A program made the translations under genes and the position numbers. Positions 50,871-53,955 of a stretch of DNA of 64,000 bases are shown one piece after another (position 1 is the first letter of the stretch; each line of letters opens with the position of its first letter). This stretch comes from Eledone cirrhosa (Eukaryota): contig OZ024744.1 of assembly GCA_964016885.1 (NCBI GenBank), positions 41,788,001 through 41,852,000 on the forward strand. The letters run 5' to 3'. The notes under the pieces are model-generated. The model made no database searches and was not told the origin of the DNA. It saw nothing but the letters and a program-made list of their open reading frames with translations.

Positions 50871-51688
50871 GCCTCTACACTGCTATCTTCCCATCACTAC
50901 TGAAGCCAGCTGGCCTTAACCATGGTGATGGCAAGCACCCTGACAAATTACCCTTTTCCCATTCGAAGGAAGTAAGTCCCTAATCAGGGATATAATATGT
51001 TCTAACTCGTTTTCTGCGTCCAGTTTTTTAGCATTCGGCCCCAAATCCTGTTATTGTCATTTGCAATGCATAAAAGAAGATAACTAAATACCAGGGTTTG
51101 ACTGGCCACTTCCTTGGTCACCATACTGCCAATTCCCTTTGCAAAATTAGAAAGATAGCAGCCTGCCTGAAGAAAGGGCCCCATGAGATAGGGTAGCTGT
51201 TGCAGCAAGAGTCTGGCCATTCCCTGTGCCAATGCCTTCGACATTTTTTACTACAGTGCCCTGCAGAAATATGTTGCTTGGCTGGGTGTGTAGTTTGTCA
51301 TTTCATCCCTACTTTCCCTTTCTTATGTTGCTTAATTTCTCTTTTTCCTTTTATTATTTCAAACAAAACCTGGTTTATCAACTGATAGTTATGAAAGAAT
51401 TATAAGTGAAGTCTAAAATGAGGTTCTTTCTTTTTTCTGTCTTTTATTTTTATTTGATTTTGTTGCTTTATTGGTTTGTTTTATGTTTTGTCTGAAGGGT
51501 CAAAGATACTTGTCAACTATGTATGTGTGTGTCACTCCATTTCTCTGTATGTCTGTATGTATGTATACGTATATATATAGTTTGGTTGACAATTATACTA
51601 ATGTGCACAAACACACAGATATATTGTCCTTGGTATGACAGTGTGGTTTTAGCTCAATGTAGGATAACTAGTATACTACAGAGCCGCT

Positions 51689-52428
51689 ATAAGTTTAGGA
51701 ATAACCAAAGAGTACTTAGAAATACAATATTTTATTTACTAACAGTGTTTCATCCATACACTAGGACAAGAATCATCAGAGCCTATAAACAAAAGTATAT
51801 CAAAGGTTGCAGGCTCCATCAAGCCTAGTCACCAGAACAAGGAGGACAAGTAGGGGGGGGGGGGCACACACAATACATGATACATATAATAAAATAAAAA
51901 ATTACATCAAAGGTTTATCACATAAATGGTGCAATAGATCATAAGGAGGTTGAGAGAGGAGAGCAAGAAATGAATGTCGGTGTTACTCAGCATAATAAAA
52001 AAACAAACCGAGCATAGATGCATCAATTCACAAGCAGTGTTTACAAGCTTTCATACTCTGCCTGTAAATCATGTACTTGCACTGCTTGTGAATTGATCTA
52101 TCTATGCTTGGTTTATATTTTGATCCTGCTGAGTAACATCCTCATTCGTTTCTTGCTCTCCTCTCTCAACCTCCTTATGATCTATTGCACCATTTATGTG
52201 ATAAACTTTTGAGGTAATTTTTTATTTCATTATATGTATCATGTATTGTGTGCCCCCCCCCCCTACTTGTCCTTTCTTGTTCTGGTGACTAGGCTTGATG
52301 GAGCCTGCAACCTTTGATATACTTTTGTTTATAGGCTCTGATGATTCCTGCCCTAGGGTATGGATGAAACACTGTTAGCAAATAAAACAATGTATTTCTA
52401 AGCACTCTTTAGTTATTCCTAAATTTAT
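51689..52428. repeat. About 740 bp near-perfect inverted repeat (arms about 350 bp), probably inverted Penelope-like terminal repeats
   Basis: 51689-52039 is the reverse complement of 52080-52428 with scattered mismatches, including G-run/C-run and GGTTGCAGGCTCCATCAAGCCTAGTCACCAGAAC / GTTCTGGTGACTAGGCTTGATGGAGCCTGCAACC. Confidence 0.9.
52328..52386 (+). ncRNA. Putative minimal type I hammerhead ribozyme motif (mirror copy at about 51732-51790, minus strand)
   Basis: GCT-CTGATGA-(TCC.TGCCC/GGGTA.GGA stem II)-GAAAC-ACT-GTT-AGC; the GUU triplet and U.U stem II closure are non-optimal. Confidence 0.5.
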
Positions 52429-52447
52429 TACGTATATATATATATAA

Positions 52448-53053
52448 CTATTGGCTATAATTATTGACGAAAACTTTGGTCTACAAGTTAAAGAAGAAGC
52501 CATGTCTTCGTTACAGCATAGTGATATGTGGGAGATGGAGAGATATTGTATATCTCTCGGTATTGGGCCTCGGTGGTGCTCCTGACGTTCCCCATGCCGA
52601 TGTGTCTGAAATGACAGAGGGCAACGGTGTTTGGATCAGGAAAGAGCCGCCTGTCAATGCCAAAAGCCCATATTTTGGGCATCTTGGGGCTTTGGCGCAG
52701 GTGCAGGTTGTCTCGAACTTGTGCTTTAAAGTTGAAGTCGTGGAAGGCTTGGAGGTTACCTGGGAAACTATGCTTGTTGATGGCAAGTTATTTGTGGAGA
52801 TACCAACAGGTATTTTACCAGAAGGTTCAAAGGAAGGGTTGGTGACATTGTTGGAATTTGCCGAAGAGAAACTCCACTGCAAAGATGTCATTATTTACTT
52901 CAGAAGGGATCGCAACAACAGAAGTTCTCTCATCAAGACTTTTATGTTTCTTGGTTTCGAAGTGGTTCCCCGGGTAATCCTCTAGTCCCGAACATCGGCG
53001 ACTTTATCTTCATGGCATATACCATTCTCAGCGAGGATCTCCTCTCCGACTGA
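52448..53053 (+). pseudogene. OAZ: Ornithine decarboxylase antizyme, intronless copy; probable retrocopy with a 1-nt deletion near the C-terminus (or an assembly error)
   Basis: ORF1 (open from 52448, ATG 52502) reads MSSLQHSDMWEMERYCISLGIGPRWCS-TGA(52583-85). The +1 frame reads DVPHA...LFVEIPTGILPEGSKEGLVTLLEFAEEKL...RSSLIKTFMFLGFEVV, the antizyme domain signature. The tail PPGNPLVPNIGDFIFMAYTILSEDLLSD* is restored by adding one C at 52968-52971. Confidence 0.93.
52565..52656 (+). promoter_or_regulatory. Antizyme +1 programmed ribosomal frameshift site with predicted 3' pseudoknot
   Basis: GGGCCTCGGTGGTGC-TCC-TGA-C matches the metazoan antizyme shift site. Crossing stems: 52589-52599/52625-52635 and 52612-52622/52646-52656. 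Confidence 0.85.
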
Positions 53054-53342
53054 TTCTTATATCCCTCCCACCCTCCCCCATTTTAATTTAGGTTCTTTGT
53101 CAATCAAGTTGCAACAGGCCTTCCTCCACCCATACGCCTCGCCCTTACCTTTTTTCTTTTAATATTCAGCTCCCCACCCATCCCCTCAAAACTCTCCCTT
53201 CACCCCACCATCTTGCATCAGGGATACAGTTTTCATTATTCAATTATTAGTATATATTGATAATAATAATAATAATAATAAAAATGATTATTATTTTAAG
53301 TATGTATATATATGTATATATGTGTATATATATATATATATA

Positions 53343-53949
53343 TATTAAAATATAGAGAAAAATACTGCAGGTAGCACATGGTAACATGTAATAAAATACG
53401 TCCCTCATCAGTGATTTGCCGAAGATCATAGATATTTCATTGCATTAAAAATCATATATCTCACTTCGGTGCAATAATAACCAAAATAAGTTATTAGGAC
53501 AATTAAAACGCGTAAAGCGAGTGAGACAGGGGAACAACAGAAAATATAGCATACCGTGGGGGAGAAACAAGCTTCAAAAATTATTCTGTTTAGCGTAAGC
53601 TAGGTGAATATATGAGCGCTTAGAGAATAGTACCAGCACGAACGAAGGCCATTGAGCAGAGAGAGAAAAAATAGCGTTCGTGAGTGCAGGATGAAATGAA
53701 GAGAAGAGGGAGAAAAACAGTGAGTGAGTGAAAGTGTGAGGAAGAGTTAACGGACAAGACAGAGGGGGAGAAACAGAGAGAATGGGGGAACAGTAAGAGA
53801 GAGAGAAAAAAACACAGAATCGCAGTGGTAAATATATGTATTAAAATATAGAGAAAAATACTGCAGGTAGCACATGGTAACATGTAATAAAATACGTCCC
53901 TCATCAGTGATTTGCCGAAGATCATAGATATTTCATTGCATTAAAAATC

Positions 53950-53955
<6 letters not shown>
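53343..53955 (-). mobile_element. Small element with 117-bp identical direct terminal repeats in (TA)n, possibly Penelope-like pLTRs
   Basis: 53343-53459 equals 53839-53955 (offset 496); each copy has CTGATGAGGG on the minus strand; (TA)n on both flanks. Confidence 0.6.

What the first reader, a model, noticed from the sequence alone, without database searches (positions are those of the whole stretch)
52448..53053. Hidden antizyme gene that needs a +1 ribosomal frameshift, mis-read by the ORF track
Seen: ORF1 ends GGG CCT CGG TGG TGC TCC TGA (52583-85), and the antizyme domain continues in the +1 frame (GAC GTT CCC...). Established: metazoan antizymes shift +1 at UCC-UGA in response to polyamines. 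From ATG 52502, with the C-terminal indel repaired, the product would be 27+156=183 aa. There are no introns, and ORF1 stays open upstream (LLAIIIDENFGLQVKEEA) until it meets (TA)n with no splice acceptor. Inference: a 5'-truncated retrocopy that still holds an in-frame ATG and the whole recoding signal.
Basis: partly seen in the sequence, partly recalled or inferred. Interest (0 to 1): 0.75.

Follow-up and report, generated by a model that had tools for sequence, protein, structure and literature searches.

The report
Decaying retrocopy of octopod antizyme gene
This is an intron-less DNA copy of the messenger RNA of the animal's intron-containing antizyme gene; it keeps the +1 frameshift site but has lost its first start codon, has a damaged frameshift-stimulating RNA structure and carries a one-base deletion in the assembly, so it is most likely an ordinary dead processed pseudogene.

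Summary
Observation confirmed, interpretation mostly right, importance overstated. Window 52453-53301 is an intron-less copy of an antizyme gene on G000:C21 whose three GT-AG introns (18.5, 6.8 and 1.7 kb) are removed exactly. The closest named proteins are octopod antizymes. ORF1 ends UGC-UCC-UGA and PF02100 lies in the +1 frame. The copy starts 17 nt after the parent's first AUG and keeps a conserved second AUG. It ends 22 nt after the start of an AATAAA, with (TA)n where a poly(A) tail would be. All 11 amino-acid changes are copy-specific. A 1-bp deletion near 52970 replaces the last 28 residues, giving 160 aa, not 183; no run covered that site with copy alleles, so it rests on the assembly. 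Purifying selection was not detected (P 0.08-0.41). Verdict: likely a dead processed pseudogene. The scan's notes held no antizyme look-alike.

The parts
52453..53301 (+). Processed copy of antizyme mRNA, 849 bp, 5'-truncated; parent on G000:C21 (first AUG at 24132179, last exon from 24159608)
52453..52501 (+). Remnant of the parent's ORF1 codons between the lost first AUG and the second AUG
   Evidence: parent ATGs at offsets -17 and +49; orthologs start at the first AUG
52502..52585 (+). ORF1 from the second AUG (context GCCATG), 27 codons plus TGA
52574..52585 (+). +1 shift site UGG-UGC-UCC-UGA, intact
   Evidence: identical 12-mer named for human antizyme 1 in PMC1874602 (passage)
52590..52656 (+). 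Class II pseudoknot, damaged. Stem 1 is 52590-52599 with 52625-52634 (GG>TT at 52631-32 breaks two C-G pairs; C>T at 52595 gives U-G). Stem 2 is 52612-52622 with 52646-52656 (C>G at 52649 breaks a G-C pair)
52584..52985 (+). ORF2 (+1 frame, antizyme domain), 133 codons as assembled, ending early at TAG 52983-85
52527..52528 (+). Exon 1/2 junction (18,478-bp GT-AG intron absent)
52837..52838 (+). Exon 2/3 junction (6,802-bp GT-AG intron absent)
52923..52924 (+). Exon 3/4 junction (1,661-bp GT-AG intron absent)
52967..52972 (+). 1-bp deletion in a run of four C, with two flanking substitutions; the parent's last 28 residues are replaced by 5 others
   Evidence: no copy-allele contig covered it
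53053..53301 (+). Copy of the parent's 3' UTR with AATAAA at 53277; homology ends at 53301
53302..53345 (+). (TA)n tract where a poly(A) tail would be
52432..52452 (+). (TA)n tract plus about 7 nt not matching the parent, at the 5' junction

Best explanation
This is a reverse-transcribed, intron-less copy of the spliced mRNA of the C21 antizyme gene, and it is likely a non-functional processed pseudogene. Shown: three introns are removed exactly, the 5' end is cut 17 nt into the coding sequence, and the 3' end falls just after an AATAAA. The pseudoknot is damaged, there are 11 private amino-acid changes, and the assembly has a 1-bp deletion. Inferred: a retroelement reverse transcriptase copied the mRNA from its proximal poly(A) site, stopped before the cap, and the cDNA integrated in a (TA)n tract without its own promoter; which element did this is not shown. 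The sequence has since decayed. If it were transcribed, ribosomes would start at the second AUG, mostly stop at UGA, and shift +1 less often than on the parent (predicted from the broken stems), giving a 160-aa product that lacks its C-terminal 28 residues.
For: Parent found in four pieces on C21 at 93-99% identity, with GT-AG introns and exact junctions. DNA and protein searches of G000 found only these two antizyme loci; the family search found only the copy. All 11 non-synonymous changes are away from the residue shared by the parent and two Octopus orthologs. Pseudoknot pairs 22-83 and 23-82 are C-G in 20 of 21 aligned sequences and pair 70-100 is paired in 20 of 21; the copy is the exception each time. 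The review reports that stem 1 mutations reduce frameshifting and that disrupting stem 2 in oyster equals deleting the pseudoknot (PMC1874602, passages). In exon 2 a contig of a second organism (run X5) has the parent's letter at 12 of 13 diagnostic sites. The synonymous count does not exceed a context-matched neutral simulation: 10 of 21 against 6.7 expected, P 0.085; 7 of 18 against 6.1, P 0.41. Run X4 holds a 798-nt contig that bridges all three junctions with the parent's letter at every listed diagnostic site, most simply the parent's spliced mRNA. The lost tail corresponds to human residues after about 199 and includes ODC contacts H202, Y216 and E219 (PMC4595762, passages; register).
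Against: The deletion lies in a C run and rests on the assembly alone. Raw pN/pS is 0.31, with a mild synonymous excess. The shift site and the second AUG with its context are intact, and there is no in-frame nonsense codon before the deletion. Human AZ 95-176 alone inhibits ODC about as well as AZ 95-228 in vitro (PMC3170320, abstract), so a truncated product need not be inert. Stem 2 keeps 9 of 11 pairs (parent 10 of 11). There is no poly(A) tail and no separable target-site duplication. Covariation support for the pseudoknot is weak: score 9 of 500 shuffles, two-sided changes 188 of 500; the stems are also coding sequence.
Confidence: 0.88

Rival explanations
1. An expressed retrogene, transcribed from a flanking repeat, making a second-AUG-only antizyme with a weakened, re-tuned frameshift (full-length if the deletion is an assembly slip, otherwise truncated but still binding ODC).
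For: Shift site, second AUG and its context are intact. pN/pS is 0.31 with a synonymous excess at P 0.085. The deletion is unverified. Truncated human antizyme still inhibits ODC (PMC3170320, abstract).
Against: Eleven private residue changes, including G>W at a position that is G in at least 90% of the 17 aligned proteins. Pseudoknot pairs conserved in all other sequences are broken. The synonymous excess disappears when three sites not assigned to the copy are dropped (P 0.41). No part of the parent's promoter was copied.
Confidence: 0.07
2. A transcribed but non-coding pseudogene: read through from neighbouring repeats, with no useful protein.
For: It is embedded between high-copy repeats that could supply transcription (inference).
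Against: No positive evidence of any transcript with copy alleles was obtained.
Confidence: 0.04
3. This locus is the animal's real antizyme gene, or an assembly artefact derived from the real gene's mRNA.
For: A six-frame Pfam search of G000 reports only this locus.
Against: An intact four-exon gene exists on C21. The copy differs from it at 21 coding and 12 of 206 UTR positions. Contigs of runs X1 and X2 match the copy with no difference over 318 and 131 nt (these may come from the assembly's own sample).
Confidence: 0.01

Closest known systems
Metazoan ornithine decarboxylase antizyme (PF02100) with a class IIa invertebrate pseudoknot (oyster type; PMC1874602, passages read)
   Same: ORF1 ending UCC-UGA, antizyme domain in the +1 frame, two-stem pseudoknot starting 4 nt after the stop; 91% identical to an Octopus bimaculoides antizyme over 129 aa.
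   Different: The window copy has no introns, no first AUG, broken pseudoknot pairs and a frameshifted C-terminus. The C21 parent is the ordinary member.
Processed pseudogenes (retrocopies) of abundant housekeeping mRNAs (general class recalled; the name 'Oaz1-ps' occurs once in each of two mouse papers, search listing only)
   Same: Exact intron loss, 5' truncation, 3' end at a poly(A) signal, different contig from the parent, decay with CpG transitions.
   Different: No poly(A) tail and no clear target-site duplication; both ends lie in (TA)n. The enzyme responsible is not identified.
Mammalian antizyme 1 with two in-frame AUGs (PMC1874602, section on alternative start codons, passages read)
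   Same: The parent also has two in-frame AUGs in ORF1 (49 and 27 codons before the stop); the copy retains only the second.
   Different: Use of either AUG, and mitochondrial targeting by the longer form, are untested in molluscs here.

Membership tests
ODC antizyme (functional gene) | Antizyme domain PF02100 in ORF2 | tested here: met
   68 bits against a cut-off of 24.2, profile positions 27-89 of 114
ODC antizyme (functional gene) | AUG-initiated ORF1 ending at UCC-UGA with ORF2 in the +1 frame | tested here: met
   only the second of the parent's two AUGs remains
ODC antizyme (functional gene) | Intact 3' stimulator (class II pseudoknot in molluscs) | tested here: not met
   Stem 1 duplex -9.5 against -21.2 kcal/mol, stem 2 -14.3 against -17.0; three conserved pairs broken only in the copy; met in the parent
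ODC antizyme (functional gene) | Complete C-terminal fold | tested here: not met
   1-bp deletion removes 28 residues holding invariant G180, D189, Y195 and I197 of alignment A1; the deletion rests on the assembly only
ODC antizyme (functional gene) | Polyamine-stimulated frameshifting and ODC binding | not testable with these tools
   needs a reporter and a binding assay
Processed pseudogene | Intron-containing parent elsewhere, introns removed precisely | tested here: met
   3 of 3 junctions exact
Processed pseudogene | 3' end at an mRNA cleavage site | tested here: met
   Homology ends 22 nt after the start of the parent's AATAAA; use of that site in vivo is inferred
Processed pseudogene | Poly(A) tail | tested here: not met
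   (TA)n follows directly
Processed pseudogene | Target-site duplication | tested here: inconclusive
   The only shared flank string is 15 nt of TA repeat
Processed pseudogene | Disabling lesions | tested here: met
   Frameshifting deletion, lost first AUG, broken pseudoknot
Processed pseudogene | Neutral evolution | tested here: inconclusive
   Compatible with neutrality (P 0.085, 0.14, 0.41) on only 18-21 substitutions
Processed pseudogene | No functional expression | not testable with these tools
   Only contigs were available, and they cannot show absence

The most novel reading that the evidence does not exclude
A young second antizyme born by retrotransposition in an octopod: the deletion is an assembly slip, the copy is transcribed from the adjacent Penelope-like repeat, makes only the short second-AUG isoform, and its loosened pseudoknot resets the polyamine threshold for frameshifting. 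It may have been written into (TA)n by a Penelope-like reverse transcriptase rather than a LINE.
Probability: 0.05. Interest if true: 0.55.

Novelty: new member of a known kind. Interest (0 to 1): 0.14.

Why it matters
If the best reading holds, it matters little: antizyme frameshifting and retrocopies are both well known. Two practical points remain. A six-frame domain search finds this copy and misses the real, intron-split gene, so it can be mis-annotated as the antizyme. The parent and copy also form a natural mutant pair for the invertebrate class II pseudoknot that a reporter assay could use directly. If the copy were expressed and intact, it would be a retrogene-born second antizyme with altered recoding.

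Tried and rejected
No RNA holder was listed for the stretch; this is no evidence on expression. Run X4 showed no contig with copy alleles among those displayed, but contigs drop rare variants. The deletion could not be checked: X1 and X2 had only parent-allele contigs there, X3 had no cover, and the RAD-seq runs X6-X8 laid 0 reads. Run X5 (a second organism) showed only an exon 2 contig and no intron-less copy; its cover was partial, so presence of the copy there is open. Copy-allele contigs had depths 3.7-6.7 against 4.9-10.6 for parent-allele contigs in X1 and X2, which might suggest a hemizygous insertion, but the tool states that depth is no copy number, so I drew nothing from it. Rfam at E<=1 over 52000-53600 found no antizyme element and no hammerhead, only two weak miRNA hits. 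The idea that the copy fossilises A-to-I-edited mRNA was rejected: only 2 of 21 coding substitutions are A>G. The primary paper on the class II pseudoknot was not held, so effect sizes come from the review's wording; the review's supplements were not opened and may bear on the two-AUG observation. Searches 'antizyme + octopus' (8 papers), 'octopus + retrocopies' (3) and 'antizyme + processed pseudogene' (7) listed no title or abstract start on this locus (listings only). The scan's earlier notes held no antizyme finding.

Full report
Observation. ATG 52502 opens 27 codons ending TGG TGC TCC TGA (52583-85), and the +1 frame from 52584 encodes an antizyme domain. Pfam ODC_AZ scores 68 bits against a cut-off of 24.2 and human antizyme 1 chains match at E about 1e-20. 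The nearest protein cluster (91% identity) holds named members from Octopus sinensis, O. bimaculoides, O. vulgaris and Argonauta hians, so the animal is likely an octopod (inference).

Parent gene. A DNA search of the window's own genome found four matches on contig C21 at 93-99% identity (10 of 10 candidates scored, five of them short matches to the simple-repeat end of the query). They are four exons separated by GT-AG introns of 18,478, 6,802 and 1,661 bp. The window copy joins them exactly at 52527/8, 52837/8 and 52923/4. The parent has an intact ORF1 and a 156-codon ORF2. A protein search found only these two loci (3 matches of 4 candidates); the family search found only the copy (1 of 2 candidates). 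Run X4, whose library type is not on record, holds a 798-nt contig bridging all three junctions with the parent's letter at every listed diagnostic site, most simply the parent's spliced mRNA.

Ends. Homology starts at 52453, 17 nt after the parent's first in-frame ATG. The retained ATG is the parent's second one, in a GCCATG context. Homology ends at 53301, 22 nt after the start of the parent's AATAAA. (TA)n follows instead of poly(A), and the only string shared by both flanks is TA repeat, so no target-site duplication can be called.

Recoding signal. The shift site is intact. The review PMC1874602 (passages) describes a class II pseudoknot 3' of the stop in molluscs and other invertebrates. 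It says stem 1 mutations reduce frameshifting and that disrupting stem 2 in oyster equals deleting the structure. The parent has such a fold: a 10 of 10 pair stem 1 and a 10 of 11 pair stem 2. Of 80 metagenome loci fetched, 21 distinct ones matched my shift-site pattern and 19 of those fold the same way; the other two (L078, L092) did not and were left out of the alignment. In the alignment of those 19 with parent and copy, two stem 1 pairs are C-G in 20 of 21 rows and one stem 2 pair is paired in 20 of 21; the copy is the exception in all three. Duplex energies fall from -21.2 to -9.5 kcal/mol (stem 1) and from -17.0 to -14.3 (stem 2). Covariation is weak (3 pairs with two-sided change, 188 of 500 shuffles as high; score 9 of 500), so the structure rests on conservation and the literature, and the stems are also coding. 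Contigs of runs X1 and X2 match the copy exactly across this region, though they may come from the assembly's own sample.

Coding decay. Over 597 coding positions the copy differs from the parent by 21 substitutions (11 non-synonymous, 10 synonymous) and one deletion; the 3' UTR differs at 12 of 206 aligned positions. All 11 residue changes depart from the state shared by the parent and both full-length Octopus proteins. A contig of a second organism has the parent's letter at 12 of 13 diagnostic sites in exon 2; this assigns changes to the copy only if the copy is younger than that species split, which is not known. Raw pN/pS is 0.31. A simulation matched for base change and CpG context expects 6.7 synonymous of 21 (P 0.085), and 6.1 of 18 against 7 observed once three sites not assigned to the copy are dropped (P 0.41). 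This fits neutrality but has little power. The deletion near 52970 replaces the last 28 residues by five, giving a 160-aa fusion. The lost part matches human residues after about 199 and includes ODC contacts H202, Y216 and E219 (PMC4595762, passages; register). Against this, human AZ 95-176 still inhibits ODC in vitro (PMC3170320, abstract). The deletion lies in a four-C run and no run covered it with copy alleles.

Surroundings. Directly upstream lies a high-copy repeat (1,651 first-look candidates): a forward unit at about 52038-52432 and an inverted partner at 51688-52039. In 8 of 10 other loci examined the unit runs into (TA)n. It carries a CTGATGA...GAAAC motif resembling a minimal hammerhead (motif recalled, not found by Rfam). 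Inverted 5' copies and (TA)n targeting are described for Penelope-like elements (PMC8557442, passages), so that label is a likely but untested reading. Downstream lies a 496-bp unit that is 97-99% identical to short tandem arrays on many contigs, probably a later arrival. The simplest reading is repeated insertion into one (TA)n tract; which enzyme copied the antizyme mRNA is not shown.

Verdict. A 5'-truncated processed copy of the C21 antizyme gene, likely dead (0.88). New member of a known kind; interest 0.14.

Noticed in passing
window 20402-50057: A 29.7-kb satellite array of a 38-bp unit, about 802 copies, 86% matches, with strong GC skew (about +0.66), ending 2.4 kb upstream of the retrocopy.
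   Followed up: no
window 51688-52432: High-copy repeat arranged as an inverted pair (89% self-identity over 747 nt), followed by (TA)n in 8 of 10 other loci, with a hammerhead-like CTGATGA...GAAAC motif at 52338 (+) and 51779 (-) that also matched in 6 of 10 other loci; looks Penelope-like.
   Followed up: partly
window 53333-53955: About 1.25 units of a 496-bp repeat that forms short tandem arrays, 97-99% identical, on many contigs, some with an inverted partial copy and nearby (TA)n runs; apparently a young family.
   Followed up: partly
G000:C21:24132179 and 24132245 (L005); L014-L076: Two in-frame AUGs in ORF1 are conserved: 16 of 19 invertebrate antizyme mRNAs have a first AUG 48-56 codons and a Met-Pro AUG 24-31 codons before the stop, as do the parent and seven annotated mollusc proteins. 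The review passages read discuss two AUGs for vertebrates and flies only; an abalone paper notes four ATGs (PMC4551804, passages). It may be an ancestral feature.
   Followed up: partly
G000 whole genome: A six-frame PF02100 search reports only the retrocopy and misses the intron-split real gene, a trap for automated annotation.
   Followed up: yes
window 52884: A>G change (Asn to Asp) inside an A run, the kind of change A-to-I editing makes; only 2 of 21 coding substitutions are A>G, so no enrichment.
   Followed up: partly
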